Notes under the pieces: generated by a model
Told to the model about the DNA's origin: nothing
Database searches by the model: none
What the model saw: only the letters and a program-made list of their open reading frames with translations
In this document: piece after piece, positions 4,804 through 37,241 of the stretch
Layout of the letters: the number at the start of each line of letters is the position of its first letter
How positions within the stretch are numbered: position 1 is the stretch's first letter
NCBI GenBank assembly: GCA_029717555.1
Contig: JAMDHS010000047.1
Location: 62,001 to 126,000 of the forward strand
Length of the DNA stretch: 64,000 bases
Direction: 5' to 3'
Origin: Peribolospora baueri
Taxonomy: Eukaryota
Position numbers and translations under genes: made by a program

Positions 4804-7800
4804 ATGTCGCTCGTAAAGGCAGCCGCCGGGCTCGCTGCCATCGCCTACGCCGACGCCTCCTACGGCCTCGGCTACGACTTTCGTCTCGCCGACCTCTTCC
4901 TCAAAGGCACCGCCATCAGCGCCTATCGCAGCTACCGTGGCAAGATCTCGCTCTGGTCCGTCTTCGAAGACTCCGCCAACCAGAGGCCCGACGAGCTGTG
5001 CTACTGGTTCGAGGGCAAATCGTGGACTTGGAACGAGGTCGCTCTCGGTGAGCTCGCCCCCGCCCCCCCTTCTCCGCACGCACGAGCCGGCCGAGAAGCG
5101 CTGGTGATGGATGAACAGCTGCGCTCATCGCTCCTATTCGACGATCCCCCTTCCTTCTGACGCCCCATCATCACAGAGGCCCGTCGAATCTCCAACTACC
5201 TCATCTCGAAGGGCTTCCATGTCGGAGGTGAGCAGCGACGCTTCATGGCCCCGTCCTCTTTTTTCCTCCTCGCCGAGAGTTCACGAACTAGTTCCCGGCT
5301 CACGCATAGCTTTTCCTATGTCCCTCCACAGATCGCTTCGCCTTTTTCCTCCCCAACAAGGTCTCCTTCATCTTCGCATGGCTCGGCTGCCTGCATGCCG
5401 GCGTCACGCCCGCCTTCATCAACTACTCTCTCACCGGCAAGGGTCTCCTCCACTGCATCTCTATCGCTGAGGCTCGCGGAGTGCTCTTCGATCCGGAGCT
5501 CGAGGCGGAACTCGTGCCCCTTGCGGACGAGTTGCGCAAGACAAAGCCCGGCTTCCTGTTCATCCGCTTCGACGACGGCTTGGGGCCCGGAGAGGGCAAG
5601 GAGAAGCCCGCCCCAAAGGACAGGCTCCAGGGCGCGGACGTCGAGTTGTTCGACCGCGCCGCGTGGAGCGCTCAGAGCAGCGCTAGGGTGCCAGACGAGT
5701 GGAGGAAGGACATCACCCAGACCGACCCGGCCTGTCTGATCTACACCAGGTGACTCGCGGCTTTCCTTGCCCACCTGTTTCACCGGTTTTCTGCCTTCAT
5801 TTCCCGCCAGCTTTTGCTGTCGGAGGATGGTGCTGCAGATGGGCTTACTCGATTCGGGCGTTCGCTTCCCCTTTCCCTCCTCCCATCGCAGCGGTACCAC
5901 GGGCCTCCCGAAAGCTGCGCTCTTTTCCCACGGAGTGAGTCGGCCATGCACTGCGATGACGGACTCTGAAGCCTCGGCGCACTAACCTCGTTTTCTTCCT
6001 TTTTGGCAATCAAGCGAGCTACGATGGCAGGCCAAGCGTTCTCTCGTTTGAACCGCCTAACCCCCAAGGATCGCGTCTACACTGCCATGCCCTTGTACCA
6101 CTCCAGCGCCGGTGAGCCTTCCGTCTGTCGTCCTCGCTCGGTTTGATGATCAACCCTTCTGGCCTCTACTCTCAGGCTATGGTCAGCTCGGGATGATGGA
6201 GTCGGATGGAGTGGGACGCTCACCCTTGACCCTCGCCCACTTTCCATGGTCCCATCAACAGCCATCCTCTGCGTCGGCGCCTCGTGGTGCGGCGGCTCCT
6301 CGGTTGCCGTAGGCCGCCACTTCTCTGCCCGACGCTTCTTCAATGAAGCTCGCGAAGCGAACGCGACGGTGATCCAGTACATCGGCGAAATCGCCCGCTA
6401 TCTCCTCTCGACCCCTCCCTCGGACAAGGACAAGGACCACAACATACGCATGGCTTACGGTAATGGCATGCGTCCGGACGTGTGGGAGAAGTTCAGGGAC
6501 AGGTTTGGCATCCCCGTCATCAGCGAGTTTTATGCCTGTGAGTATCGCTCGCCGCCTCAGTATTCCAGTCAGTTCAACAGCTCGGACGGACGGCTGACCA
6601 CCCGTTTTTATGCGCCCTCTTTTCAGCCACCGAGGGCAATGGCAGCTTGCTCAACTACAACACCGGCCCGTTCGGTAAGGGCGCTGTCGTGAGTGGTCGC
6701 AGACCGTCGCTATTTTGGTTCCCACGCTTCCTGTCGTGTGAGAGTGAGCGCTCGAGCTGAGAGAGTCCCCCCCCCCCGGCCGGCGTTGGCCGTCGGCCAT
6801 TTTTTTATCAACAGGGCCGCTTCGGCTCGTTCATCCGGACCATAAAGCCGGATGTCAAGGTCGTACAGGTGGATGCTATCACTGAGGAGCCTGCGCGGAC
6901 CGCCAATGGCTTCTGTATCGAGGTGAGCTACCGTCAACCCGCATACCATCACGAAAAGAGTTGTCGGTCACGAACTGCTCTTTGTCCGATCTTCCCGTCC
7001 TTCGCTCCCTTCAGTGCCCTCGCGACACGCCCGGCGAGCTCCTGATGCGTATCCACGAGGACCACCCATCAGGCAAGTTCCAAGGCTACGCGGGGAACAA
7101 GGCGGCGACGGAGAAGAAAATCATTCGCAACGTCTTCGTGAAGGGTGACGCCTACTTCCGCACGGGAGACCTCATGCGCATGGACAAGGACGGACACTTC
7201 TTCTTCTGCGACCGCCTCGGGGACACTTTCCGGTGGCACGGAGAGAACGTCAGCACGGCAGATGTCGCGGAGGCGCTCGGAGAAGTCGTCGATGAGGCCA
7301 AGTGAGTCTGAGAAGGAGAAACGGTCTCGTCTTTCATGCTCGAAACGGCTGTGCTCCAGACTTCATATCTCATCCACCCTTCATCCCTCGCACTCCACAC
7401 CTGCTATCTGCAACGTCCGCCCACAGCGTGTACGGCGTCCTACTTCCCAATCACGAAGGCCGAGCCGGCTGCGCCGCCATCCCCGCGACCTCGAAGATCG
7501 ATTTTTCTGTCGTGGCACGGCACGCGACCAAGAGGTTGCCCAAGTACGCCGTGCCGATCTTCTTAAGGATCGTGCCTGAGTGAGTAGTCTTGCGGACTGG
7601 GTCCTCCTTGCGTGAGCTGAGAGGGAGGGAGCTCTGATCTGACGACTCTTTCCTCTCTTTGGCCGTCTCTCTGTCCGTCACTCGCTCCACAGGATGACGT
7701 CGACGGGCACCGTGAAGCAGCTCAAAGTCGGCCTGCGGAACGAAGGCGTGGACCCGAACAAGGTTTCCGACCCGCTCTACTGGCTTCCTCCTGGCGGGAG

Positions 7801-7864
7801 CGCTTACTTGCCCCTCGACAAGAAGGCTTGGGCCGAGATCACGTCTGGCAGGGTCAAGCTCTGA
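4804..7864 (+). CDS. FAT1: Fatty acid transport protein / very-long-chain acyl-CoA synthetase (FATP/Fat1 family); multi-exon; C-terminus VKL
   Basis: AMP-binding motif YT|SGTTGLPKAA split by an intron, PLYHSSA, IQYIGEIARYLL, EFYA|STEGN, FATP signature GDAYFRTGDLMRMDKDGHFFFCDRLGDTFRWHGENVST, LPKYAVPIFLRI. Ends SGRVKL-TGA. Confidence 0.92.
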
Positions 7865-8481
7865 TGCCTTGGACAGTTGCGCTTCTTTCTTTCTGTCTGC
7901 TTTGCCCACATCCCTGTCCACCGCACACGTCTCGTCTCCTCCTAAGATCTACCGCTCGGGCACTTATATCTGTCGGTCGTTAGTATCTGGAATGAAAATC
8001 TTCTTTAGCTGCCTTCGCAATGCTGGCACTCATGGGGGGTAAGGGAGGAACTGGCACGGGCAGCTGGTGGGACGATGGATGTGAAGGTATTTTGTTGTTT
8101 TGCCTGTCTTTGCTTTCCTTCCCGCCATATCCGAAGAACGACAACCGCTGGTTGCCTTGGCCGCGTTTCGCCGCGGTTGAGCGAGGATGCCACCTACCCC
8201 ACTTAAACCGGGCGTCCGACAAGTGGCCGAACCCGAAGGCGCCCGTCCGTCGCCCACCGATGCCTGTCTCTCCATCGTCCTCCGGCTCGAGGACGACAAC
8301 ATCTTCTCTTCGCACCGCACCTTCCGACCTCGCCGCTCCTTCTAGCCACCCCTCTCGCTCTTTCGAAATAGCCGTACCGCTGCCCACTCCATCTCCCGCT
8401 GACTCGCGTTCGTCGATTGCTTCCGCAAAGGCGACGTCCAGACTCCAACAGGTCGCCTCTCACTTGCCTTCTCCCAACAAG

Positions 8482-10757
8482 ATGACTTCGCCTCAGGAGT
8501 TCAAGCAGGCGCCTCACAAGGTGCGTTGCGCTCCCCTCCACCCTTTGGCCAGCTTTGCGTTGATCGGCCGTGATGAGGGAAGGCCCCAGGTCGCAGATCG
8601 ACGTGGTCGCCGAATGTGGAGGTGCCGCACGACCTACGCCGGTCCACGTCGTCCCCACTGACGCTGAGTCCTCTTCTCCCTCCCTGACCCCGCTCCACAG
8701 CTGCTCGTCATTCCCGGTGAGGTCGTGCACCCGCTCCGTCCTCTCTCGTGCGATTATGTAGCCTGACGGCTCACCGTTTGTGCTATATCACCGTTTCAAC
8801 AGGCCCGATCGAGGTGTCGGACGACGTCCTGCTCGCCAATGCGCATCCTTCCATGTAAGCTTGCTGCCCCCATTCCCTTCTTCACGCCCGGCCCATACAT
8901 GGCATGGAGCAGGCCGCCGATATCTCGCCCCTTTGGCCGTGATCATCGCCTTCCCCGCAGGTCCCACGTCTCCCCGGACTTTGTCCCCGTCTTCGGCGAC
9001 TCTCTCCGCATGCTGCGACAGGTTCTCTTTACCTCCTCGGGGCAGCCCTTCCTCGTGGCCGGATCGGGTACCCTCGGATGGGACATGGCTGCGAGCAACC
9101 TCGTCGAGCCGGGCGAGGATGTGCTCGTGCTCAACACCGGCTACTTCGGTGATAGCTTCGCCGAATGGTGAGTTGTTTTGATCGGTGTTGATCGGTGAGG
9201 GTCGCCGCTGGCTTAATTGGGAACGTCGCCGTGTTGACAGTCTGCTGCTCTTTGCCCCGCTTCTTGTCTTTCAGCCTGGACACCTACGGCGCCAAGGTGA
9301 CCCAGCTCAAGGCGCCGGTCGGCGACAGGAACAAGTTGGCGGACGTCGAGAAAGCGCTCAAGGAGAAGGAATACAAGGTTAGCGAGTTACGAACTGGGGA
9401 TACACTCAACGGACTCATGCTCATCTCGCTTGATTTGCTTCTGTCTGGCTTGATTTTTTTTGCTAGATTCTCACGCTCACTCACGTAGACACCTCTACTG
9501 GCGTCCTGTCCGATGCGAAGGGGATCGCCGAGGTGGTTAGGAAGGTCTCTCCTAAGACCCTCGTCGTGCGTGCTCATTTTTCTGTCTTTGTTCCTTGAAT
9601 GTGACCCCGTTTCTTATGACTTACCTTTTCATCGGCCGGCTACCCACCCCCCAGGTCCTCGACGGCGTCTGCTCCGTCGGATCGGAGGAGATCCGCATGG
9701 ACGACTGGGGCATCGACCTCGTTCTCTCAGCGTCGCAGAAGGGTCTCGGAACTCCCCCCGGCTTGGCCGTCCTGTGCGCGAGCCAGAAAGCCATCAAGGT
9801 CTTTGAGAACCGCAAGGCCAAGCCGACGAGCTACTTTGCCAGCTGGGCCAAGTGGTTGCCGAGTGCGTATCTTGTCGGCTTTCCCCGCCTCAAACCTTCA
9901 TTTCGAGGTTAGCAACGCTGACCAAACCTTCGCTTCATGCTTCTTCTCTCTTTGCTTTTCGTTGACGATAGTCATGAAGGCGTACGAGGCTGGCCAGGGC
10001 GCTTACTTCGCCACTCCGCCGGTGAACCTGATCTACGCTTTGAACGCGTCCCTCACGGCGATCACCCAAGGCTCTCCCTCGATCGAGGAGCGTTTCCGCC
10101 TCCACCGCGAGACGAGCCAGCGCGTCAAGCAGACCCTCGCCTCGTGGGGGCTCGGGCAGATCCCGGTCAGCGCCGAGGGGAGCGCCAACGGCATGACCGC
10201 CGTCAAGTATCCCGACGGACTCAAGGCTCCCGACGTCCTGCCTCGCATGGTCAAGAAGGGCATCGTTGTCGCCGCTGGCTTGCACAAGGAGGTCAAAGGT
10301 ACGTGCTCGGTGGAATGAATGGACTGGAGAGCGGATCGGCCCCAGAGGGTGATCGTGCGCGTCATCCAGCGCCCATCCCTGGACACCCGGATCGACTTTG
10401 ACCCATTTTTTTTTCAACCCCTTCGACATCGATAGACACTTATTTCCGTATCGGACATATGGGCGAGACGGTCGTTCGGCCCGAGTGAGTCTCGTTCCGT
10501 CGCCTCCTTCATGCCCTCGCTCCGTCGTCCATATCTGGAAGGAGGGACGATAGACCGATCGATCGTCTCCGCCGATGTGTCCCGCTCGAGGAGATTGGAT
10601 ATGTTATCTGACCCGTGCCTCTCGTCGTTCTTGCCCGCCCTTTCCCCACCATCTCTCGCTCCCTCTCCTCGTCCCTTCATTCAGGCGCGGAGACATCGAC
10701 AAGCTCCTCAAGGCGCTCAAGGAGTCTCTCAACGAAGCTGGCTACCACGTGCAGTAA
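8482..10757 (+). CDS. AGX1: Alanine-glyoxylate aminotransferase (class V PLP enzyme); multi-exon; possible in-frame N-terminal extension from 8260 or 8416
   Basis: MTSPQEFKQAPHK|LLVIPGPIEV, AGSGTLGWDM, NTGYFGDSF, LTHVDTSTGVL, LDGVCSVGSEEIRMDDWGID, PLP-lysine motif SASQKGLGTPPGL, YFATPPVNL, YFRIGHMG. 16-nt micro-exon at 8701-8716; stop TAA ends at 10757. Confidence 0.93.
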
Positions 10758-11064
10758 ACTTCTGAAAGACGGAAAGAGTCCTTCTGTATGCTTACTACTC
10801 GGACGGAGGGACCATCGGTCAGGTTTCGTCAAAGGGCCGTCATTGTCCTTCGCGGCATGACGCCCGAAGATATACGTGACTAGAAGTACACTTTACAGAC
10901 GAGAGACATGAATGTGCGGTGACGGGAACCGACGAGACAAAAGTCAAGAAGAGAGCGAGTGGATGAGAACCCAAAAGAGGAAATTGAAGTGGGAAAACGG
11001 GAGATAAAATGTCCAAAGGAGGAGCAGGGAATAGGAATGGAACGAACGAGCCACATCCACGTCG

Positions 11065-14000
11065 TCACTGCTCCCCGGATTGGGCCGGGTGCCAGAAGAG
11101 GATGGACTGAACGAGCGGGTCGAGGTGAGTCCACTCGACGGGCGTGGCGAATTGGTCCGGCAGCGCGGGTTCAGCGAACAGGGCGGCCACGTCGTGGATC
11201 GACGACACGTCCGACCATCCTCCCCAGCACATCGGCGCGGACGAGCTGGTCGGATAGCCGACGTACAAGTCAGCCGCAGCCGCCGGTCCTGGGCGTATGT
11301 CACCTGCGGCGGAGCCGGAGCCGGAGCCGGAGCCGCGAAACGTCGATGGGGCGCCGTCGCTGGGGAAGGGAAGACCGGAAGGGGCGATGGAGGAGTCGTA
11401 TGAATTTGACCCGCCCCTTGCAAAGGAGGAGGAGGAGCCGGAGCGTTGGCCGGTCTGTCTGGAGACCTGGCTCGAAAGGTGGCTCTGCAAAGGTGGCGGA
11501 ACCGAGGGCATGTCCTGACCGATGCCCGCGCCCCCATCATCCTCGAGTGCGGGGTCCAACGCATACGCGCCGAATTGCCCCTCGCCTTGCGAAGGGGCGG
11601 CAGAAGAGGATGTCCCGCTTTGCGCGCTAAGGCCTGAGACGTTGTTGGGAGTGAAGTTGGAATGGAAGGAGGAGGAAGCGCCAGAGGTCGGGTCGAGGGA
11701 GGCGGTAGCAGAGGAATGGTACGAAGGGGCGGGAGACTCGGCGTATACGACCTTGTCGCCTGGCCGGAGCCTCGTGGCGAAGGTCAAGAGGCCAAAATCA
11801 GGTCGCGAATAGTCAGCGAGGGCGTTGTTGCCCCTGTTCGGAAGGCTGGTGTAGTCTCGGTCCTTGGAGTCGACGAAGGCGCGCAAGGTCTCGAGCATGG
11901 GCAAAGCCCTCCTCGCCATCTTAGAGCCGGGAGCCATCTCGCAAAACAGGGCGTAGGAGAGCTCAAAGTCCTGCCGAACGTCGCGGGCGAGCATGCTCAA
12001 AGGCGTCCGGATCAGGACGAGGGCCTGTATGACGGCAGCACTGAAGGCATGAAAGACGAAAAACCACCACAGATATGCATCTCGGGGAGACTGACGAAGG
12101 AGGGACTCCATAATGCGCATGTGTCGCCGCGCGCTCGTAACGCAAGCCGAGAAGCTGTCCGCGTACGGCGTCACTAGCGGCTCTTGACCTTGTTCGAGGG
12201 CGCGAGAGAAGAAGGGTCGGTGAAGGAAGAGGATCGCTTTTCCGACGAGAAGGCTCAGCATGTGTCGCTGGGGAATCGCTTTCGGGTCATCTCGAAGGGC
12301 CGCCAGTGCCGATGGGGAGCCAGTCGGATGTTCGTCCAGCCGCCAGTAGGGAGGAAAGCTCGCTTCGAAGGCATGAAGCTGATCCAGTGAAAGATGGAGG
12401 AGAGTGCCCGCGAAAGCTGTCAGCCTCGGAACGTGGGTTCCGTGCGCACGGGTCTCGACGCGCACCTTAACGTCCAAAGCCATCACCTGTTCGTAAGGCG
12501 CGACGGAGGGACCGGCGAGAAGAAGATCAGACACTTGGCCGAACACCTTGACGCCAAGGTATTTGAAATGGTGAAAGTCGGGCCCGCCCGGGCCCGGGCC
12601 TGCGTGCACGTTTCGATCCTCTGGTGGTTTGGCGTCGACGAAATCGAGGCTAGTCATATAAGGTCGACCGAAATTAAGAGACTGGAAGCGGTCATACACC
12701 TGTCGAATAGGATGGAACGCCGGAGGGTGAGAACGGGATGGCTCGCGTACGATATCGGCCGGCAGTTCCGATGTGGCAGGACTGACGTACCATGATCTCC
12801 CACCACATCCTCGCTCGCTGTTTGACTTCCGCCTTGTCCAACGGCCACTTGGTCGCATCTCTGAGAGGAGGAGAGAGCGTGTAGAAGAAATAGAAAAAAA
12901 ATGAGCCATCCGCGGTAGACGGGAAGAGTGGAGCAGGTACACTGACTTGTGAAGACCCATCGCCTGACCGAGTCGCATTGCAAAGCCAAGGAGCGGCCAA
13001 GCAGCCCGCGGCGCCTCTCCTTCGTCCACGATGAAAAGGAAGGTCACCATCAGATGGAGCGTCTCGCAGCACGCAAGCGTCTGATGAGCCAAGAAATGAA
13101 TGCCTAGGAATAGGAGAGAAAGTGAGATGGACAAGTGACTACGATTCAACTTGTGCAAAAGCAAGCGAGAGCAACAGCGCCCGGGCGACTCACCGTTGAC
13201 AGACAAACAAGCCGCCGCGTCGGTGAACAGCTTCTGCGCCTCCCTCACCGCGTCGGGATCCATGGCCCAGTGGGATTTTTTATTGGCAGAATGAGCCCGG
13301 ACGTCGAAGACCTTGCCGAGGGCAAATACCATTAGGAGGCGGGCCGTATGGTGGGGATGGAGCCGGCCGATGCCGACGCTGAGGCTAGACGCGCCGTAGA
13401 GCACGGACAGGTTTTGCCGCACCGCGCCTTCGCCCGCGGCTCGGTACATCCAGTCCACGCCGAGCATGTATCTGGCCCAGGTAGGGGTCAAGCGGAGGAG
13501 AAAAGACGAGACGTGGCGGCATAAATCAGACGACGTGTTCATCGAGCGAAAGTCGGACCTGTGGGACGACCCACATATCGACCAGCCTTTCCGCCTCTTT
13601 CCTGCTCGGTAAACGGGACGGCAAGGACACGAGTGTGGACGGGTCTACGCCGAACGGCAGGCCGGCGGGGAAGGTGAACGCTGGTGTCGATCCACCTGCG
13701 GGAGAAGATGTGCCCCGTTTTTCGCTCCGGCCCTGAATGGGAAAGGGGACGGAAGGAAGGATTTGACGGCTAAGCAGAGCGCCTCCCCCTTGCCCTCCGG
13801 GGACGGCCCCTCGCAAAGGCCCACCTGATCCTCACCTGAACCTTGCATCCCCCTAAGGTCAAGATGGCCGCGCCCGAACGACCGATGTACCATGTCTCGC
13901 CGGCCTCGTACACCGACAGCAGCCCGGCATCCGAATCCTGCTGCGCTTCGTGGCGAGACTCGTCGTCGGATCGTTTCCCCCGGACATGGGGCTTGTCCGG

Positions 14001-14810
14001 AGACGCTCCGGCGGCGGCGGCGGCGGCGGCGCTGCGCGTGTTCAAGCCTTTTGTGCTGCCAGCGCCCGCGTCGTCGCCGCCATCGTCTCCGACCCAGGCG
14101 TCGGCGGTGGCAAGGTGGTGGCGACCGCTGGGAAAATCGGTCTCGAGGGCGGATATGAGATCGGCAGTGCTCGGCGCGGCCGACACGATCGGCGGCGGGG
14201 GAACGCCATTGGCCCTGGTGACCTCGGTGAGGGCGTTCTCGAGCGCGGCGATGCGCGCGAGAAGCAGTTTAATGGACTTTTGGCTGCGGAGGTTGGAGCT
14301 GCAGGAGGGACGGAGGAGAAGAAGGTGGAATGAGGCGGAGACGAGGACGGCGACGGAGAATTGGGAAGGTCCCGGTGCGCAGGTGGACGACGACGCACCT
14401 CGGAGCCAAAGATCCGTTAGGACAGAGGTCCTTGACGTTCCTCCTGATGCAGTTGGTGCAAGGCCATGTCCGAGAGCACTGGGAAGAGACGTGGACGAGG
14501 GCGGTGAGAGCGAGAAGAGTGAACAGGAATGTGCGGATGAACGACGACGACGACACGGCAACGACGAAGAGCCCAAGTCCGATTGGCGGGGTAGGAGCCA
14601 GAAAAGGGTCCGATGGACGGCGAAGAGGAGATCGTCCATTTGCTACTTTTGTTTCATCTCTTCTCATCTCTGGTGTCGTCTCCCTCTTGCTCCTCCCACC
14701 TCCTCTTTCTCGTCCCATCTCAGTCTCACCTTGAGTTTGAGTCGTCTGCACTCTGCGCAGCTCTCGGCCTTACTCTTCCCTAGACGCTTCGCCGACGGTT
14801 GCTTGGGCAT
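11065..14810 (-). CDS. Zn(II)2Cys6 binuclear-cluster transcription factor with fungal-specific TF domain; multi-exon
   Basis: Spliced CAECRRLKLK|CSRTWPCTNCIRRNVKDLC gives six Cys in GAL4 spacing; coiled coil LLARIAALENAL; middle-homology region AWPLLGFAMRLGQAMGLH...RARMWWEIM...YDRFQSLNFGRPY. Start uncertain because further in-frame ATGs lie upstream to 15077. Confidence 0.88.
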
Positions 14811-14883
14811 GCTCGGCGGACTGGGCGGCGGGGGTATAGAATGGGATGTGGAGGACGAAAGAAGATGGGTCGCTCCGTCGGGT

Positions 14884-14884
<1 letters not shown>

Positions 14885-14920
<36 letters not shown>

Positions 14921-14945
14921 TCGTCGTTCGTCGTCGTCGTCGTCG
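14885..14945. repeat. Imperfect (CGT)n microsatellite in the leader or N-terminal extension of the Zn2Cys6 gene
   Basis: Run of cgtcgtcgt visible directly; reads as poly-Arg then poly-Asp in the frame of the transcription factor. Confidence 0.9.
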
Positions 14946-16078
14946 CCGGTACCTTGGCGTCCGCGGTCGTAGGTCGGGGAGCTGCGGGGTCGCGGATTCG
15001 TCGTCGGCGGGACATCGGTCGAGCGAACGCTGTTCTTGCTCCATCCCATCCCATCCCATCCACCCTTCCTCCTTCATCTTCTCTCCACCAGCAGTTGGGC
15101 GGATGAACCAGCGAAGTGACTGCTAGCCAAGTGATTTAGTCACACGGCGCACGCAGAGTCGTGCCAGTGAGTACCGTACATGCTGTACTTAAATGAGCAA
15201 CATGGCGTCAATCATAATCGCCAAGCACGGGCGGATAACCTGACAGCTCGACGACATGAGAAGCGGCGTTCACATCTGCCTACGAAGCAACGGGTGGGCG
15301 GGCGGAGGGAGGAGTAAGTGAAGCGAGGATGGGCATCGGCGACGCTCGTCCCCAACGACGAAAACGGACGGTGGAACAGAGAAGCGCGTTGGTTAAGACC
15401 GTCCAGTGTGGCTGCTTGAGCTGCTCATTCAGTGCCTTGGCTCGTCAACGGTTGCTGTAAGAGAGAGCAGTATGCGAAACGAAGAAAGTCCTGGCGTTTT
15501 TCCAATCCATATCCGGATGGCCGTGCCAAGGTCGACCTGTCCTGAGCTGATGTTCTTGGCCGAGCTGTGGGGCGGGGAGGGCGCCGCCATGACATGGCGA
15601 TGGTCATTCAATCCGGCCTCGGTCAGCACCCGTGTCCGGTCATGCTCCTCAACTTGACTACGTGCGGGTTGGAGAAAAACAAGAGGGGGGCCGAGGATAT
15701 AGGGAGGAGATAAAGATGGTAGTGGCGCTGACATGGTGGAATTGGTCCCCTCCAAAGTCATGTTCCGCGCACGAGGTCACGTCGAACGAGGTGCCGCATC
15801 TGAGGAAGAGGATGGATGGATGACGACCAACAGTGTATGCTCCACTTTGATATACGGATCCTCCAACCTCGTTCCGCACACATGGCGAGGTGGCCACGCC
15901 GCTGGGGCGCTGCCTGGAAGGAGAATGGAGGAGGGAACAGAGATCCAAAGGCGAACGCCGATTGCGCTCTCTCTGCGATCGTCTATTCGTTCTCCACCTC
16001 GCCTCGGCATTCTTCTTCGGACGACCGATCGGCTTAAACGCACCGCCGATCACCACCAGCTAAGCTCTTCGCACCACT

Positions 16079-17360
16079 ATGGCCGACTCCCTCGGCGCCG
16101 CGCCGCCGCTCCCAGATGACCTTCTGGGGAAGCAGCTCTCCGCCGTCGAGCTCCTCCAGGGCATGTTCTGTCTCGACGGGGAGTTTCTTCTCCTCTCCGA
16201 GCCAGCCGAGCTCGATCGCCTCCGATCGTACCTCGAAAGGTCGGGGTCGGACGAGCCGGATGGGCGGTCGAGTGCTGTCGAGGAGACGACGGGGCGAAAG
16301 CGGCAGCCGCCGTTGAACGTCCGGATCAGGCTGCGGATCCTCATCGACGAGGACGTCCGATATCCGCTCGAAGTAGACGTCAACGTGCCGTTGCGAGGTC
16401 ACGTCCTTCCCGACGCGACAGAGCCACCAGAGCCGTCATGCGTCCTCCGGTGTCCCCCGTGGCTCGACAGGCGGTCGCATGCCCAACTGGCCGCAGGACT
16501 GCCTCGCTCGGGCTTGGGAGAGGACTCCATGCTCCAAGTCGTGGAGTATCTCCGGCAAGAGGCACCAGCTTACATCTCGTCGGCGGCGGCATCAGGTACG
16601 GAGACGGCCGGTGACGCCGTTGTCGGGCGAGGTCGAGGAAGGGACGACGACGCGCACCTCTGCAGGGTGTGGTTCTTCTTTCCGAGTTTGTCCACCAGGG
16701 CCAAGCGAGACGATCTCGTAGACTTTGCGCCCGAATATCGACTCACCGGGTTCGTGCTTGCGGGTGAGAGTCAGGCAAGCCGAGCGCGGAGAAAAGCAGG
16801 GGCGATGCAGACGGAGAACAACAAAAGGCCGAGTCACTCGGTCTTCGGAGAGTGGGCAAGGGAGGCTGTAGCATGGATTTCATTTTATGTCTTTAGTACT
16901 CATCCGGTCTACGTTCCTCCGCATGCCCCTTTCTTCTCTTCCAAGGCAAGCCGGGTCTCCTCTGTCTCGAGGGCGCACCGACCGACGTGGACGCCTACAT
17001 GCGGCACATCAAAGTCCATTCGTGGGGGGACATACCATCCCATCAGAAAAAGGTGGGTGGGATGGGCGGAGGTGGCCCAAGCATTCACCGTCGGTGTCGA
17101 AGCTTTGTTTAAAAACACGCCCCTGATCTGCCTTCCTTTCTCTTCCCTTCCATATCCCCCATTAGGTAACAGAACGATACCGCGAGGATCCCATCTCAAA
17201 TCGCGCCTTCGCGGACATGCAGGAGATCACGGACCATATCCAAAAGCGCGGCGCCCGAGGGAACCGGGGCGAAATGCGCGAGGTGAGGGACTGGATGGTG
17301 GCCGCCGGCGTCGGCGACGCGTTCGGCAAGGTCCTTGGCGCCGAGTTTGCGTCGACGTGA
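16079..17360 (+). CDS. RWD-domain/DUF1115 protein (RWDD2-like); 3 exons
   Basis: N-terminal KQLSAVELLQGMF, then RVWFFFPSLSTRAKRDDLV..YRLTGFVLA|GKPGLLCLEG...SWGDIPSHQKK|VTERYRE; introns about 16764-16945 and 17052-17165; stop TGA 17358-17360. Family assignment from recalled motif resemblance. Confidence 0.72.
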
Positions 17361-17791
17361 ACCTTTCCCTTGCACTCATCATGCTGCCCTTCGCACGGCC
17401 CACGCGCGGGACACGAGGACGCTGCGAGATCCAAGTCGAGCCGAAAGCGTATACCGATTGTTGAAATATCATCATTGTATCAGTGATTGGAGAGAATACA
17501 CAACAAGGGATGGAAGGAAGAAGGACAGACAAGCGAAACAAGGAGCACAGGTCGGAGAGCTACACGTTGGGTGGAAGAGTCGCGGAATCACGGCGGTCGC
17601 ATGAATGGTGGTCGGTATGGAGAGAGGTGATCGAGGGAAAACAGCTTTATACAATTCATTCGGGTCAAGATGGGTGCCATGAGAGAGACGCATGTAGATG
17701 GACGGCGAGCGCCAAACCAATAGTACGGTCGAGACTGATGCCCAAGCCGAGCGAGGCCTGCCTCTGGCGGGGGTTCGATGATGAGACAAAT

Positions 17792-24500: not shown

Positions 24501-27500
24501 CGGATTCGAGGGGCTTGTCGAGGATGTTGGACATCTTGTACTCGAAATTTTGCGCCGCCACGAGAGGGTTCAAGAGAAGGCGGTAGCCCCTGTGGGATTG
24601 GAAAGGAGATGGGTTGGAGAAACGTACGTGCGAGATGCCCATCGTCAACCTGTTCCGACTCACTTTCCCTTCGCGGGCTTGATTTCTCCGCAAGCGCCCC
24701 CGATTTGCGGATGCTTGTACATTGGCCGCCAGAGGTGATAGATGGCGTCCGGATCCGGCTTCGTGCCAATATCCAACAGCACAGTCGTGCGCGGTTGAAG
24801 GATGGAGCAGAAGCCATTGAAGAACCATCGGTGCGAGTTGATCTGAGGGTCCGGTGAAGAAACGCAGACGCGTCAGTGGTCGTCTGAATGAGAACTCGAC
24901 CGGCGCATTTGAATGACAGACCTTTTTCAGGTTCTTCGTCTTGAGGCACAAGATTGTCTGTACCGGGATAGGATCCGGAGTACTCGACGAGCCGCGCGCG
25001 TGGTAATCAGGCGGGGGGATTTGCGTCGTGAACTGGTGGCGCGTAAGGAAAACGGGTCAGAAGGTCGGACAGACTGAGAAAAACGACGTCACGATCCAGA
25101 AAAGCTTGTTCACTAACCTCGTAGACGTGTGCTTTGATATCTTGACCGCCGACGTGCGTTCTCGGCATCCACCGTCCGTCCGGCCCAGCTTCGCGACAGC
25201 ACTCCGGTTGAAAGATCTATATGACCGTGGCGAAATGAAGGCAGAGATGAGCTCCGTTCGAAAGAGTAGTCAAAATGGCAGAAATGAGCTCACCCCCATC
25301 GCCTCCATGTTATCCAGAACTCTCTGATCCACCTTGTCCATGCCGTCCGCCACAATCACCACGACAACCTTCTTCCAGCTGTCCTCTCTGAACCATCCTG
25401 CCTCAGCGGAAGGATCCCTGGCGCGCATCTCCTCGTACGTCCACTCGTCCTCGATGCCCTCAGCAGCACCGTGCAAAGGTTCTCCCTCCGGCCACTTCTC
25501 TTTCGAGTCGTTCAGACGGTTTTTGTTGAGGGGAGGGCAGAGGAAGTCGATCGTCCGACGCAGGTTGGAACGACCGCGTCGGCGGGCGTTGCAGAGATAC
25601 GAGATGTTGCGATAGATACCGTCGAGCGTGGCCGTGAAAGAATCAGCACGCTCGTTGTACCTGTCCGATTGAGAGGAACGAATGGATCATCGTCAACGAA
25701 CGTAAGAAGCGGGGAGAAGGGCTCGGCGCGAAAAAGGGACACGGCAAAGCGAGGTAGAGAAGATGGCTGGACGACTCACAGAGTGACACAGATGCAAATC
25801 TCGATACCAGGATTTCGGAACATCGACTCCGCCTGTCCTTCTTGGACATGGGCGGGGTGTCCGTTACCCCATTCGGCATACGCGGATGTTAACGGTCGGC
25901 CTTCGCCGGATCCTAACCCCCATCCTCGGCCATCGCTCAGGCCGCTCGGGCCTCTCCCAAAGCCGGACGCGCCTCTGCGGCCCGAGGAAGCGGACTCGAA
26001 GCCGAGAGGCTTTCCTAGCAATCCCTGCTCCCTGACCCAATCGGGCGTCTGCCTCAACGTCCATCCTTCCTCTCGCATAAAGTCCGGGTCGCACGTCATG
26101 GCGGAGTAGCGTACGGTGTCAAAGTGCGAGTAGTTGGACGGGTGAGCGGAAAAGGTCTGCGGGTGGACGACGGTCGTTCGCAGGAGCGGTGGGATGGGAA
26201 GGTCAAGGATGAGATGCCCGCCCGGTGCGAGGCTGCAAAGCGGCGACGAGAAGAGGCATGACGCGTCGGTCAGCTCAGGTCCGAAAAGGGTTTTACGTCG
26301 CTGCGATACGGAGCTGAAACGCAGCAAGGTAAGAGGACGACAACGACGAACACTCGGACTCACTCGACGGTCATCCTCCGATAATAACCCTCATCCGGCA
26401 TCCGCACCCTCCTTGGCAAGGTATAATTCCCACCACCGTCGTCCAGGCCCATCCCTCCAGGTCCGTACAGACCACCGTTGTGGCCGAAGAAGGAGCCCGA
26501 GTCGTTCCACTCCTCCCCACTCTGCAGTCTCACCCTCCTCCTGCCCCCGTCCGGTAATGTCCTCCGCCTTGTCGCGCCCGCGAAGGCGTTGTGCGCGGGC
26601 GTTGAAGGCAACGGAGGTGAGCGCTCACGTCCGTCTCCAGGGAAGCCCGCTGGCCAAGGAGGGGGCGGGGCCGGCGGAGGCTGGAACGAACGCGGCTGGC
26701 TGGTCAGATGATCCTCCGGAGAGAAGGGCGCAACGGTGGGTGGGTCGACGGAGTCGGGCGGAGGAGAGAAGAACTCGTCTCCAGGTGCCGCCGCCGCTAG
26801 TGGCGGGGGAAGATGTGGTGGACCCGGGGGAAGCTGGGGTGGACCGACAATCGGGGGACCTTGGGCGTGAGGGTGGCTGGGAGGCGGTAGGCCGGGCAGG
26901 TCGTACTGTGCCTCTGCCCTCGAGCCTGCGCCTCCAACGCTCTGCAAGGTACGAGAGGTAGGGGAGGCGGGCCTACCGACAGAAGGCATTCTCGGCCCGG
27001 TTGCAGAGACGGTCGGCGCATTGGCCATCTCCACATCATTCATCGGGGGCGGACTGGGGCTGTACGCTCTCATCGCCTGATCCTCTACCGGCTGATTTGC
27101 CTCTGCAACGCCAGAAGGTCTCGCTCCGGCGTCAACTGAAAGCATACTGGCAGCCTCGCCTCCCACCGCTGGGGGCTCAGGCGTCTGTGGGTTGAGAAGG
27201 ATCGAAGGTGGCATCGGCCCGTCTCGGCGGTTGGCAATGCTTCCCGTCGGTGCACCTGACATGCGCGATCGCGGCGGTGTGTCGGGTCTGGAGGGGAGCG
27301 CGGAAGGGGAAGACTCCGGAGGAGCAAAGTCGCGAGCATAAAAGCCTCCTTCCTCGAGCTGACGTTCTCTCTCCGCGGTCCGTTGGCGTCTGTTTCTTTT
27401 CCTGCGCACCGCTGCCACGCTGTCGCGGTCTCCCCCTGCTCTAGCGTCCCCGGGACCGAAAGGCTCCTTGTCCTCATCATCGACGCTCACGGTAAAGCTG

Positions 27501-28255
27501 ACGGGTCCGCGCGCACCAAACTCAGACACCCCTCCGCCGCTTGGTTGGCTCGGGGAGATGGCCCCGTCGGCGGGAGCGTTGCGGCGAGTGGGGGAGGGGA
27601 GGATGGTGACGGGCTTGGGCAAGGGGTTGTTTGATCTCGAGAACTGCCAGGTGGGAGAAGACGCGCTGGCGCTCGTACCCAACACCCTCGACCGTCGACC
27701 ACCCGAGCCTGTGCCTGGGCGCGAGCCGGTGCCGGGCGCTGAGCCTGCGTTCCCCTCACGGTCGACGCTGCCAGGTATCGACGGTTCGGGATAGCGAGAG
27801 GTAGCCAGACCGGGGTCGAGGATGCGGGACGACGTGGGGCGGAGGCGGGAGGGCGGAGGACCTCCCGCTCGGCCTCCTTCCCATCCTCCATCCCAGCCTG
27901 GTGGTGGTGGTCCTACTCCTCCTCCTCCTCCTCTCCGCTCTTCAGCGCCGCCAGCGCTGCTGCCCCAAGCGCTGAGTCCGATCGAGTTCATGACAGAGCC
28001 GACGCTGGGCAACCACTTGCTCAAGCCGCCAAATCTGCTGGAGCCCTCGCCGCCGGGCTGAGAATCGGAAGTGCGTCCGGGACGACCGTAGGGAGAGGAA
28101 CTAGAGAGGGTGCCGGAGCAAGAGGGCCTTGGGCGGGGTGCCATACCCGGCGGGGGGCCCGCGGGCGGCGGCGCCATTGGACCCCGACGACCGGGTCCTC
28201 CGGGGCCGACGCTGGAGGGGGCATAGCCTGACGGTGCTGGTCCTGGACCGTCCAT
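21551..28255 (-). CDS. chs: Chitin synthase (division 1, class I-III type) with a long Pro/Gly-rich N-terminus and many short 3' exons
   Basis: Spliced motifs [125 protein letters not shown] and several TM segments. Last exon [18 protein letters not shown]. Confidence 0.93.
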
Positions 28256-34509: not shown

Positions 34510-37241
34510 ATGTACACCTCAACCTATACCTGGCATCAGGTAAGCGCGCATCTCCCATCAGACCATCTCCCACCGTGCCGCGTTCCATCCTTGCTCATAG
34601 TCTCCCTCCATCGTCCTTCGCAGTCTCACGATCAAGCAACGCTCCTCTTTCTCGTTCCTTATGAGACCACCAAGGATGACTTGGATGTGACCATCGAACC
34701 CGATCGTGAGTGCCTCGTTTCGATGTCGGATACTCCACGACTTTCTCCCTTTGTCTTATATGCGTCATATTTATCTAGACATTGTCGCTGGCTTGAAAGG
34801 CCAAGCGGCGATCGTCAAAGGGCGGCTTTACCGACCGATCGACAAGGAGTCGAGCGTCTGGCAGCTGGAGAAGGCCCACCCATCTTCCTCTCGCCGACAC
34901 CGTTCCGGGAGCCAATCAAGGCGGTTCTCCTCTTCCGTCTCTTCCGCCGGCTCCTCCTTTGCCATTCTCTCCTCCCCGCACACCGCCTTCAGCCCAGCGG
35001 AGGGCAGCAACGGCAGCTCAAATGGCCACGACAGGCACAGCTCCGAGGAGTGGTCGCCCTCGTCCGGACCTGGTTCCGGTACAGGGAGCGAGCCCAGAGA
35101 AGGAGCGGCCGAGTCGTCCTTGAGCGGTACCACCAGCTCCCCTCCCTCGCCCACTCTTTCTTCTGCGCCGCCATCGCTGTCTAATTCTGTCAACTTGTCG
35201 GCGCCCCTCCTGACGGAAGAGGTCTCCCCTCCCGAATCGACCACTCGCTCCATCTCACGCGCCTCGCAGGTTAGTTCGACCGCGTCGCCGAACCATCAGC
35301 AGAGCGCAAAGTTGGTGACATTGCATCTGGCCAAGGGTGAGCGATCTATTTGTCGTCCGTCTATCTGTCGAGGTCTATACTCTTACGTTATCGTTTCTCT
35401 TCTTCGCTATCGCAGACGAGAGCTGCATATGGCCGAGCCTGATCGTCGGCCCGGCACCTCTGACAGCAGCTCCAGAGTCGACGATGACGCAGGCCGGTGA
35501 CGATCCTTCCTCCCTCGCCCAGGCGGCCTCCGCCAAGCCACTACCATCTGCTCCTGGACGAATCCTCCACGCTGCTTCGCCCATGCGGCCGTCTTCGTCC
35601 GCCGCGTTCGTCGGACCCGGGCCGGTCCAGCCGCTCGACTCGGCGTCAGAGGAGTACCTGTACAACCTCGACCCGACCTCTCTATCCCTTCTCGGACTAC
35701 AGCACCTCTCCGCACGACCGAGCCCGGCGGACCCGAACCCGCACGCCACGGCGTTCGAGTACCTTAGCCGTGGTTGGAAGACGGGTTGCGTTCCCGTGGC
35801 AGTTCAGAAGCTCGTCGACGAGTATCTCCCGCTCGACCAACGCGACCTGTCCCCGCTCTTTTCCGGAGGCGCTCACTCGCGCCCCCGCGCGGACAGCGGC
35901 GGCGGTCTCGCCCTTTCGCTGGGCATCACCTCGAGCTCGAGCGGCGGCGGCGGCGGTGCGGCGAGCACGCGCAGCTTGTTCAAGTTTTACGCCCTCCGAC
36001 TCGGGGGCCCGGCGGCGCTGGCGAGACTGTACGTGGCGTACGCGCGCCTCCACCTCGGCACCGCGCCCATCTCGCCGCTCAGTTTCCCCTCGGGCCCGCT
36101 GACGAACCCGTTCAACGTGTCGGCGGCGAGCACGCCGGGAAGCTCGCATCCGTCGAGTCCGAGACACGAGTACGCGCGCGGCGGCGGCGGCGGGGGGGGG
36201 GCGAAGAAGGAGGCGAGCGCGGGGAGGAAGACGAGGGACGGCTGGAGCGCCGAGCCGGCGCTGGCGCTCGAGTACCTCGAAGAGGCGAACCGCCTCGATC
36301 CGACGTCGACGGCGGATGTGACCGAGTACGAGTGGCACCAAGCCAGGGCTTCGGCGGGGGACAGAGAGGAGACGGCGGAGATGGAGCGAGTGCGGGAACG
36401 TCGAGAGGGACGAGGGACGGAGGAGTGGGCGACGCACGACGAGACGGAGCTGATGAGCTCGGAGGACGAGCGCACGCTGCTGTCAGCCAGGCCGCGATCG
36501 ACGAGTGCGAGTGCGAGTCGAACGGCGGCGGCGGCGGCGGCAGCGGGGGGAGCAACGGCAGGAGCGCACCGAGGCCGGCGGACGGAACTTGCTACAGAGT
36601 CGAACGGGGAAGAAGGCGGTCAGGTTTGCGGCCATGACGCTCATCATCACGACCGGCACGCCGTCCGGGGCGTGTTCTCCTCGGCGACGTGGGAGACTGC
36701 GCACATGATGCGGAGGGCCCATCGTCATCCGGACGAGGAGGAAGGGGAAGGGGGGCAGAGCGGGGGCGACGAGGACGACGACGACGTGGTCACGCCGGTG
36801 TCGAGCCTGTCGGAGCACGAAGAGGCGGAGGGCCCGGAGATGTCCTTAGCAACCACCCGGTCGAAGCGGGAGCGCCCCACTGACCGAGAGGACGACGGGG
36901 TGGCCGGGCTGCTGCGAAAGGCGCCCTCGTCGACAGGCGCCGGACGAAGGAAGGAGGCGAACGAGCGCGGCCTCGTGGGTCGATCTGGTACGCATGGCCG
37001 TGGCAAAGGCAAAGGCAAGGGCAAGGGCAAGGGCAAGGGCAAGGGCAAGGGCAAGGGCAAGGGCAAGGGAAAGGGAAAGGGCAAGGGTGATGGCACACGG
37101 AGGGGCATCGTCGCGTTCCCCGCATGGGGCATGGAGGCCAAGTCGAGCGAGACGCTCGTCCGAGGCGTCGTCCTTCTCGGCATCGTCGGCTTTGGCGTCG
37201 GCGTGGCGAGCTGGTGGAGAAGGGGCAACTTGGGAGGGTGA
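34510..37241 (+). CDS. Uncharacterised protein: N-terminal CS (p23/HSP20-like) domain, helical-repeat-like middle, (GK)14 tract, C-terminal tail anchor; 4 exons
   Basis: Exons about 34510-34539, 34624-34705, 34779-35336, 35416-37241 give YTWHQ|SHDQATLLFLVPYETTKDDLDVTIE...IVKGRLYRPIDKESSVWQLEK...LVTLHLAK..WPSLI, resembling NudC-type CS domains. Terminal hydrophobic helix GVVLLGIVGFGVGVASWW followed by RR. Confidence 0.75.
37002..37085 (+). repeat. Coding hexanucleotide repeat (GGCAAG-type, 14 units) encoding (GK)14
   Basis: ggcaaaggcaaaggcaagggcaag... 84 nt in frame with the last exon of the CS-domain gene. Confidence 0.95.

What the first reader, a model, noticed from the sequence alone, without database searches (positions are those of the whole stretch)
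8260..8484. Cryptic PTS2 peroxisomal signal upstream of the second AUG of AGX1: candidate dual targeting by alternative or non-AUG initiation
Seen: the frame upstream of the ATG at 8482, where the recognisable enzyme begins, stays open and encodes RLQQVASHL at 8440-8466, six codons before that ATG. In-frame upstream starts exist: ATG 8260 and near-cognate ATT 8416 (context TCG ATT GCT). The C-terminus (YHVQ) has no PTS1. Established: the PTS2 consensus is (R/K)(L/V/I)X5(H/Q)(L/A); mammalian AGT changes compartment through alternative start sites; PTS2-bearing extensions made by non-AUG initiation are known for fungal 6-phosphogluconate dehydrogenase. Inference: one gene yields a Pex7-imported long form and a cytosolic short form, and standard gene callers would miss the long form.
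Basis: partly seen in the sequence, partly recalled or inferred. Interest (0 to 1): 0.75.

Follow-up and report, generated by a model that had tools for sequence, protein, structure and literature searches.

The report
Hidden peroxisome tag on fungal aminotransferase
A fungal alanine-glyoxylate aminotransferase gene carries a peroxisome address label just before its usual start codon, a label shared by many distantly related fungi, so one gene probably makes both a peroxisomal and a cytosolic form of the enzyme.

Summary
RLQQVASHL lies in frame at 8440-8466 and matches the strict PTS2 consensus (29 of 20,000 shuffles). It shares 7 of 9 residues with the PTS2 of this genome's own thiolase, and the genome encodes PEX7 and Pex5 proteins with a Pex7-binding domain.

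The motif is conserved. It is in 25 of 71 annotated basidiomycete AGX1 extensions (shuffle mean 0.2) and in 25 of 33 fungal metagenome loci chosen by the enzyme core alone. Mushroom-forming orthologues mostly carry mitochondrial-type presequences instead.

In filamentous ascomycetes the PTS2 form most likely starts at a conserved CUG in good context, with AUG in some species. In this window the likelier start is the weak AUG 8260, with AUG 8482 giving the cytosolic form; the nearest clade has an AUG 32-74 codons upstream. ATT 8416 has poor context but remains possible (about 0.2).

No RNA data were available, so transcript start, initiation site and import are all inferred. The mechanism class is known. 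I found no report of PTS2 on AGT in eight searches of the open library.

The parts
8203..8207 (+). TTAAA, the only TATA-like stretch between 7970 and 8500; would put the transcript start near 8240-8247, upstream of AUG 8260 (inferred)
   Evidence: TATA 35-40 nt upstream of the TSS in Cryptococcus (PMC11302930 passages). Weak: not a canonical TATA box
8260..8262 (+). Upstream in-frame AUG in weak context (-3 C); most likely start of the 464-aa PTS2-bearing form
   Evidence: nearest clade has an AUG at -32 to -74 codons; this genome's putative PEX7 start has the same CCG-ATG context
8275..8296 (+). Perfect 8-bp hairpin starting 12 nt after AUG 8260; might aid a weak start (effect recalled from the literature; noticed post hoc)
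   Evidence: 18 such hairpins in 64 kb, 28 of 3,000 leader shuffles have one; folding z only -1.29
8263..8439 (+). Ser/Pro/Thr-rich linker (or 5' UTR if the start is later); carries acidic residues and does not look like a mitochondrial presequence
   Evidence: GC3 0.56 over 8260-8415 against 0.84 in the mature CDS
8416..8418 (+). Near-cognate ATT, 8 codons before the PTS2; rival start, -3 T, +4 G
   Evidence: same spacing as the ATG/CTG starts of loci L097, L022, L031, L037
8440..8466 (+). PTS2 nonapeptide RLQQVASHL
   Evidence: 7 of 9 identical to the genome's thiolase PTS2
8482..8484 (+). Second AUG in strong context (aacaagATG, -3 A); start of the 390-aa form without PTS2
   Evidence: a Met downstream of the motif in all 26 other basidiomycete rows listed
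8482..10758 (+). AGX1 coding exons: 8482-8520, 8701-8716, 8803-8854, 8961-9167, 9275-9377, 9467-9565, 9655-9862, 9972-10298, 10436-10484, 10685-10758 (stop 10756-10758); ends YHVQ
   Evidence: best PDB hit yeast alanine-glyoxylate aminotransferase 2bkw; PF00266; 70-73% identity to annotated AGX1
9733..9744 (+). SQKG motif; its Lys (9739-9741) is the PLP-binding lysine of class V aminotransferases (assignment from knowledge of the family)
   Evidence: alignment; searches show the motif nearly invariant

Best explanation
This is the genome's single AGX1 (alanine:glyoxylate aminotransferase) gene, and it has two in-frame starts. Some ribosomes start at the weak AUG 8260 and make a 464-aa form with a disordered leader and a PTS2 at residues 61-69. 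Pex7, with a long Pex5 as co-receptor, carries that form into peroxisomes, possibly taking a short subunit along because AGT is a dimer. Ribosomes that scan past 8260, or transcripts that start downstream of it, begin at the strong AUG 8482 and make a 390-aa cytosolic form. [quoted passage not shown] Shown: the anatomy, the conservation of the motif and the second Met, and the receptor genes. Inferred: transcript start, use of each AUG, import, piggy-backing and function.
For: Strict PTS2 match is rare by chance. The genome's thiolase begins MAS-RLSQLASHL. PEX7 is at G000:C11, best PDB hit the PTS2 receptor 3w15, E 4e-39. Two Pex5-like genes hit PF25098 above the cut-off. U. maydis imports PTS2 cargo through Pex7 and Pex5b (PMC9133605 passages). 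The motif is in 25 of 71 basidiomycete extensions, shuffle mean 0.21, maximum 3 in 1,000, and in 21 of 27 extended models of the clade sister to the window. There the first Met sits 32-74 codons upstream, and several N-termini share an Arg-Arg plus Ser start in both Ustilaginaceae and Tilletia. It is also in 25 of 33 fungal loci picked by core peptides alone. Weak AUG followed by strong in-frame AUG is the common dual-targeting layout in Cryptococcus (PMC7049704 passages).
Against: No RNA evidence for the transcript start or for either start. Region 8260-8415 shows no codon bias in frame and has the base make-up of the DNA upstream of the thiolase start, though ascomycete extensions also often have low GC3. 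I estimate that an in-frame upstream ATG with open frame arises by chance about 1 time in 5 (open frame 7,763 of 20,000 shuffles). Annotated long forms can only show AUG starts, so the basidiomycete sample is biased. A PTS2 at residue 61 is further in than usual. The leader has no detectable relative (0 hits). Five Tilletia models and Mixia have extensions without the motif. My relaxed motif pattern was widened after seeing the orthologues (classic consensus: 34 of 90 extensions), and the rows include close relatives. Histoplasma AGX1 (KAG5298338.1) is not in the published list of peroxisome-enriched proteins.
Confidence: 0.6

Rival explanations
1. The PTS2 works, but the long form starts mainly at a near-cognate codon (ATT 8416, or ATA 8368 or ACG 8434), because transcription begins inside the C/T-rich stretch downstream of AUG 8260. 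This is the Pgd1-type mechanism the first reader proposed.
For: ATT 8416 sits 8 codons before the Arg and reads I-A-S-A-K-A-T-S-R, the same spacing as M-A-P-S-R-A-T-S-R in L097 and L-A-S-S-R-A-T-P-R in L022. Codon-usage preference for the right frame appears only from 8416 (scores -2.2 against -14.2 and -14.9 over 22 codons). Filamentous ascomycetes appear to use CTG at this site (11 CTG, 4 ATG, 1 GTG, 1 TTG among 17 matched of 20 loci). U. maydis Pgd1 starts at AGG AUU (PMC7214817). A 7-bp stem begins 10 nt after the ATT.
Against: ATT 8416 has T at -3, whereas all 12 ascomycete CTG/GTG starts have a purine. All 26 other basidiomycete PTS2 rows have an upstream AUG (biased by annotation). The only TATA-like stretch points to a start upstream of 8260.
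Confidence: 0.22
2. Only the long form is made: AGX1 is an ordinary PTS2 protein and Met 8482 is an internal residue, so there is no dual targeting.
For: 27 of 48 models in the sister clade are annotated with an extension. AUG 8260 shares its context with the putative PEX7 start.
Against: A Met just before the core is kept in all 26 other basidiomycete PTS2 rows and usually has a purine at -3 in the DNA loci. A CUG start for the long form in ascomycetes implies most ribosomes pass on to the next AUG.
Confidence: 0.08
3. In this species the motif is a leftover or chance peptide in an untranslated leader, and the enzyme is cytosolic only.
For: The leader looks non-coding in composition. Some fungal loci have lost or eroded the motif (8 of 33 without it, 3 of them at a contig edge). 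There is no close relative to show selection in this lineage.
Against: A perfect strict match, in frame and open, at the homologous position, would decay quickly if unused, given only about 70% identity of the core to the nearest relatives.
Confidence: 0.1

Closest known systems
Ustilago maydis Pgd1 cryptic PTS2 (Kremp et al. 2020, PMC7214817; parts 1-2 of 5 read)
   Same: A PTS2 hidden in frame upstream of the annotated AUG of a metabolic enzyme, conserved in related fungi, giving a minor peroxisomal isoform.
   Different: Pgd1 has no upstream in-frame AUG and starts at AGG AUU. This gene has an in-frame AUG 60 codons up. It is a different enzyme, and the motif extends to ascomycetes, with CUG there.
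Weak-AUG/strong-AUG dual localisation in Cryptococcus and Neurospora (Wallace et al. 2020, PMC7049704; passages)
   Same: Weak upstream start, targeting peptide, strong downstream AUG; weak AUG and near-cognate codons swap between species.
   Different: The cases in the passages I read carry mitochondrial presequences; here the peptide is a PTS2.
Mammalian AGT (AGXT) compartment switching (PMC3798809 passages; start-site mechanism recalled)
   Same: Same enzyme family, with location set by N-terminal start choice and varying between lineages.
   Different: In mammals the N-terminal extension is mitochondrial and peroxisomal import uses a C-terminal PTS1. Here the extension holds the peroxisomal signal and there is no PTS1.
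Magnaporthe oryzae AGT1 (PMC3338719; passages)
   Same: A fungal orthologue reported as peroxisomal and tied to lipid use.
   Different: That paper credits a C-terminal QKA, tested on a 46-residue fragment; full-length fusions gave no signal, and the passages mention no upstream PTS2. I did not see the Magnaporthe leader sequence.
Peroxisomal 3-ketoacyl-CoA thiolase (PTS2 cargo)
   Same: Near-identical nonapeptide: RLSQLASHL in this genome; RLSQVTSHL within a 40-residue leader shown to target in Histoplasma (PMC13343957 passage).
   Different: Thiolase has the signal 3 residues after its start Met; I saw no sign of a second isoform.

Membership tests
AGX1/AGT, class V PLP aminotransferases | Homology to AGT over the whole core with the SQKG lysine motif | tested here: met
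AGX1/AGT, class V PLP aminotransferases | Alanine:glyoxylate transaminase activity | not testable with these tools
   inferred from orthology only
PTS2 (Pex7) cargo | Nonapeptide (R/K)(L/V/I)X5(H/Q)(L/A), strict form with hydrophobic position 5 | tested here: met
   classic consensus as quoted in PMC3798809; the stricter pattern is recalled
PTS2 (Pex7) cargo | Motif conserved at the homologous place in orthologues | tested here: met
PTS2 (Pex7) cargo | Near the N-terminus of the translated protein | tested here: inconclusive
   residue 61 from AUG 8260, residue 9 from ATT 8416; orthologue models put it at 12-74
PTS2 (Pex7) cargo | PEX7 and a co-receptor present in the organism | tested here: met
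PTS2 (Pex7) cargo | Pex7-dependent import shown | not testable with these tools
   no experiment; only an unconfirmed lead in Histoplasma data
Non-AUG cryptic PTS2 isoforms (Pgd1 type) | No in-frame AUG upstream of the PTS2 | tested here: not met
   ATG 8260, 8032 and 8020 are in frame on the DNA; would be met only if transcripts start after 8262
Non-AUG cryptic PTS2 isoforms (Pgd1 type) | Near-cognate codon conserved among relatives in favourable context | tested here: inconclusive
   window: -3 T and no close relative; met for ascomycete loci, as CTG with -3 purine
Dual-AUG leaky scanning | Weak upstream AUG, strong downstream in-frame AUG, no AUG between | tested here: met
   the absence of an intervening ATG is not rare
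Dual-AUG leaky scanning | Both AUGs on one transcript and both used | not testable with these tools
   no RNA holder listed

The most novel reading that the evidence does not exclude
A PTS2 leader on AGX1 is ancestral to Dikarya and has gone unnoticed because it is made from interchangeable weak starts: weak AUG in basidiomycetes and CUG in filamentous ascomycetes. In many ascomycetes a third, further upstream AUG adds a mitochondrial presequence, so one gene serves three compartments from three in-frame starts. Mushroom-forming fungi dropped the PTS2 and kept or gained a mitochondrial presequence, some with alternative PTS1 ends. This would be a fungal replay of mammalian AGT retargeting using the other peroxisomal signal, and it would mean the published PTS1 explanation for Magnaporthe AGT1 is at least incomplete.
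Probability: 0.45. Interest if true: 0.7.

Novelty: new member of a known kind. Interest (0 to 1): 0.55.

Why it matters
It adds a glyoxylate-handling enzyme to the fungal peroxisome that PTS1 scans and many gene models miss, including the U. maydis reference model. It gives a widely conserved, directly testable case of CUG versus weak-AUG initiation at one homologous site. It also offers a second eukaryotic kingdom in which to study how AGT changes compartment, the question behind AGT mistargeting in primary hyperoxaluria. The mechanism class is already established, so this extends it rather than overturning it.

Tried and rejected
No RNA holder was listed for 7900-10900; this is no evidence either way, and no reads were laid. 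The leader found no relative among 1.84 billion representatives. No named Rhodotorula, Cryptococcus, Aspergillus or Neurospora orthologue appeared in the listed hits (only the best 120 of 593 and of 7,019 were shown in the first two), so those groups are untested. ATG 8020 and 8032 were rejected as starts: they lie within about 170 nt of the upstream gene's stop and upstream of the only TATA-like stretch. A cryptic PTS1 by readthrough, intron retention or alternative acceptor was not found. A mitochondrial reading of the window's leader was rejected by eye; no predictor was run. The codon-bias test did not separate the two starts once ascomycete extensions were used as a control. The hairpin after AUG 8260 is not significant by folding energy. 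The bacterial promoter scan does not apply to a fungus. The exact-match PEX7 pattern failed and two mismatches found it. The careful tree did not finish; quick trees place the window beside Ustilaginomycotina (94 SH-aLRT; 0.93) and leave its class undetermined. G217B_2021 could not be tied to a gene name. No structure or complex was predicted, since a Pex7-peptide pair would pass by likeness to 3w15.

Full report
OBSERVATION. The finding is as described. RLQQVASHL is encoded at 8440-8466, in frame with and five codons before ATG 8482. In-frame ATGs lie at 8020, 8032 and 8260, and ATT 8416 is one of several in-frame near-cognate codons. A ten-exon model with GT-AG introns gives 464 aa from 8260 or 390 aa from 8482, ending YHVQ. 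An exon's best PDB hit is yeast alanine-glyoxylate aminotransferase, the core is 70-73% identical to annotated basidiomycete AGX1, and it is the only locus hit by an orthologue in the 22.7-Mb genome. No PTS1 arises by readthrough, intron retention or 23 alternative acceptors. A strict PTS2 in open frame appeared in 29 of 20,000 shuffles and the classic consensus in 293. The open frame (7,763) and the lack of an intervening ATG (9,654) are not unusual.

THE GENOME CAN READ A PTS2. One of five thiolase-family loci scanned begins MAS-RLSQLASHL, 7 of 9 identical to the AGX1 motif. A PEX7 gene was found with a short recalled motif and confirmed by its best PDB hit, the PTS2 receptor 3w15. Two Pex5-like genes hit the Pex18/Pex21 C-terminal family above its cut-off. 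In U. maydis, PTS2 import needs Pex7 and Pex5b (PMC9133605, passages).

BASIDIOMYCETE ORTHOLOGUES. Of 181 near-full-length proteins including the window's, 90 have an extension of 15 or more residues before the Met next to the core. 44 match a relaxed PTS2 pattern and 34 the classic one. The relaxed pattern was widened after I saw the orthologues, and the set holds close relatives. Among basidiomycetes, 25 of 71 extensions match, against a shuffle mean of 0.21. By clade: 21 of 27 in Ustilaginomycotina, 3 of 5 in Pucciniomycotina, one Rhizoctonia model, and 0 of the other 38 Agaricomycotina extensions. Of those 38, 31 look mitochondrial by a crude rule of mine (at least 4 Arg/Lys and at most 1 Asp/Glu in the first 40 residues). 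Misses include five Tilletia models, Mixia, and Ceraceosorus, which has the near-match RTLQVASHL. The window's protein branches beside Ustilaginomycotina without a close relative. In that clade the first Met lies 32-74 codons before the motif, against 60 in the window; in Cystobasidiomycetes and Rhizoctonia it lies 12-14 before. Annotation is split: U. maydis, S. reilianum and U. hordei are 390-aa short models, while Moesziomyces, Kalmanozyma, S. graminicola and others are long.

ASCOMYCETES. A metagenome scan keyed on two core peptides returned 80 loci. My script classed 33 as fungal; 25 of these (21 distinct) carry a PTS2 in the open frame upstream, mostly RLSLISRHL. Three of the 8 without it are at contig edges, and three further fungal loci with an early intron had none. 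Among 20 distinct ascomycete-type loci, a residue followed by Ala-Pro/Ser or similar, 6-16 codons before the motif, was matched in 17. Its codon is CTG in 11, ATG in 4, GTG in 1 and TTG in 1; all 12 CTG/GTG have a purine at -3 and G at +4. Nearby leucines are CTG in only 15 of 84. A good-context CTG/GTG/ATG falls in this 12-codon window in 14 of 20 loci, against 6, 5, 0 and 0 in four control windows. This is the pattern of a conserved CUG start (inference). Named proteins from Chaetothyriales, Onygenales, Geoglossomycetes, Lecanoromycetes and Coniochaeta carry the motif (21 of 23 hits); that search was seeded with the motif and only supplies names. Onygenales models add an upstream, mitochondrial-looking stretch from a further AUG, and Emergomyces has Met at the CUG-equivalent site, suggesting three in-frame starts.

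WHICH START IN THIS WINDOW. For AUG 8260: the nearest clade's layout; the same CCG-ATG context as the putative PEX7 start; a single TATA-like stretch at 8203 that would place the 5' end near 8240-8247 by Cryptococcus spacing (PMC11302930, passages); and a perfect 8-bp hairpin 12 nt downstream, rare by count but not by energy and noticed post hoc. For ATT 8416: the same 8-codon spacing as L097, L022, L031 and L037; frame preference only from 8416; and a UTR-like make-up of 8260-8415, although true-looking ascomycete extensions also often have low GC3. Against ATT: T at -3. I put the weak AUG at 0.6, a near-cognate start at 0.22, long form only at 0.08 and an unused motif at 0.10. No RNA holder was listed, so none of this is shown directly.

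A LEAD IN PUBLISHED DATA. In the Histoplasma peroxisomal proximity proteome (PMC13343957; passages, supplementary file 6 whole, rows of files 2, 4 and 5), AGX1 (KAG5298338.1) is not in the list of peroxisome-enriched proteins, which counts mildly against. An unnamed product, G217B_2021, has log2 ratios of -0.12 in wild type, -2.18 in pex7 and +1.23 (adjusted P 0.003) in pex5. The PTS2 control Pot1 gives 5.1, -2.42 and 4.44. That is what a mostly cytosolic, partly Pex7-imported protein would show. Gene-order interpolation from the listed accessions puts AGX1 near ids 2018-2020, give or take a few, so the identity is unconfirmed and I do not count it as support.

WHAT IS KNOWN. Cryptic PTS2 by non-AUG initiation is established for U. 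maydis Pgd1 (PMC7214817, parts 1-2 of 5). Weak-start dual targeting, with swaps between weak AUG and near-cognate codons, is established in Cryptococcus and Neurospora (PMC7049704, passages; its supplement had no hit for glyoxylate or AGX1). Magnaporthe AGT1 is reported peroxisomal through a C-terminal QKA (PMC3338719, passages). Variable AGT location in mammals is noted in PMC3798809 (passages); the start-site mechanism there is recalled. Passages of PMC9549241, PMC11842775, PMC3237427 and PMC4580311 did not mention a PTS2 on AGX1. Searches gave no report of a PTS2 on a fungal AGT; most listed papers were seen only as listings. The library lacks most subscription papers, including fungal peroxisome inventories, and 11 of 23 supplements of PMC11302930 were not searched, so a listing in such a table is possible.

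VERDICT. The motif is real, conserved and very probably a working PTS2 on a minor isoform of AGX1. It works like Pgd1 in outcome, but on the DNA it fails the Pgd1-type membership test (an upstream AUG exists) and fits the dual-AUG layout better. It is a new member of a known kind, with a wider pattern across Dikarya that I found no report of. Interest 0.55.

Noticed in passing
L022, L025, L028, L031-L035, L037-L039, L051, L065, L075, L082 (5-12 codons before the PTS2): Conserved CTG (one GTG) with a purine at -3, replaced by ATG in L027, L068, L071, L089 and L097: probable CUG start of the PTS2 isoform in filamentous ascomycetes.
   Followed up: yes
ascomycete loci and P0204-P0225, just after the PTS2: A second conserved motif, (L/I)NTP(F/Y)(S/T), follows the PTS2 by a few residues in ascomycetes and is absent from basidiomycetes; function unknown (processing, regulation or receptor contact).
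   Followed up: no
P0213, P0215, P0217, P0219, P0222 (Onygenales): An upstream AUG with a mitochondrial-looking presequence precedes the CUG-equivalent site, suggesting three in-frame starts.
   Followed up: partly
P0011, P0014, P0032, P0044, P0065, P0099, P0107, P0193: 8 of 243 proteins end in a PTS1-like tripeptide (ARL, SRL, AKL, CRL); the named ones are all Agaricomycetes, and several have ends that differ from their relatives', hinting at alternative PTS1 ends where the PTS2 was lost.
   Followed up: no
L017 (G000:C14) and L018 (G000:C653): Two long Pex5-like genes 82-84% identical in DNA, while AGX1 is single-copy; a duplication or a partly hybrid genome. The L017 copy's reading frames are more broken up.
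   Followed up: no
window about 7000-7864, + strand: The upstream neighbour is a fatty acid transport protein / very-long-chain acyl-CoA synthetase ending GRVKL (read by eye), a possible non-canonical PTS1; its stop is only about 400 nt before AUG 8260.
   Followed up: partly
P0236, P0177 against P0237 (Tilletia): T. controversa and T. laevis models have a mitochondrial-looking N-terminus where T. indica, T. walkeri and T. horrida have the PTS2: a recent switch or alternative first exons.
   Followed up: no
window 11068-13542 (-), 13864-15126 (+), 16079-17464 (+), 26360-28255 (-), 35484-37241 (+): Long open frames (420-825 aa) with no Pfam hit; not checked for being real genes.
   Followed up: no
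PMC13343957 supplement 4, G217B_2021: Unnamed Histoplasma protein with a Pex7-dependent, dual-location labelling pattern, near the expected position of AGX1; identity unconfirmed.
   Followed up: partly
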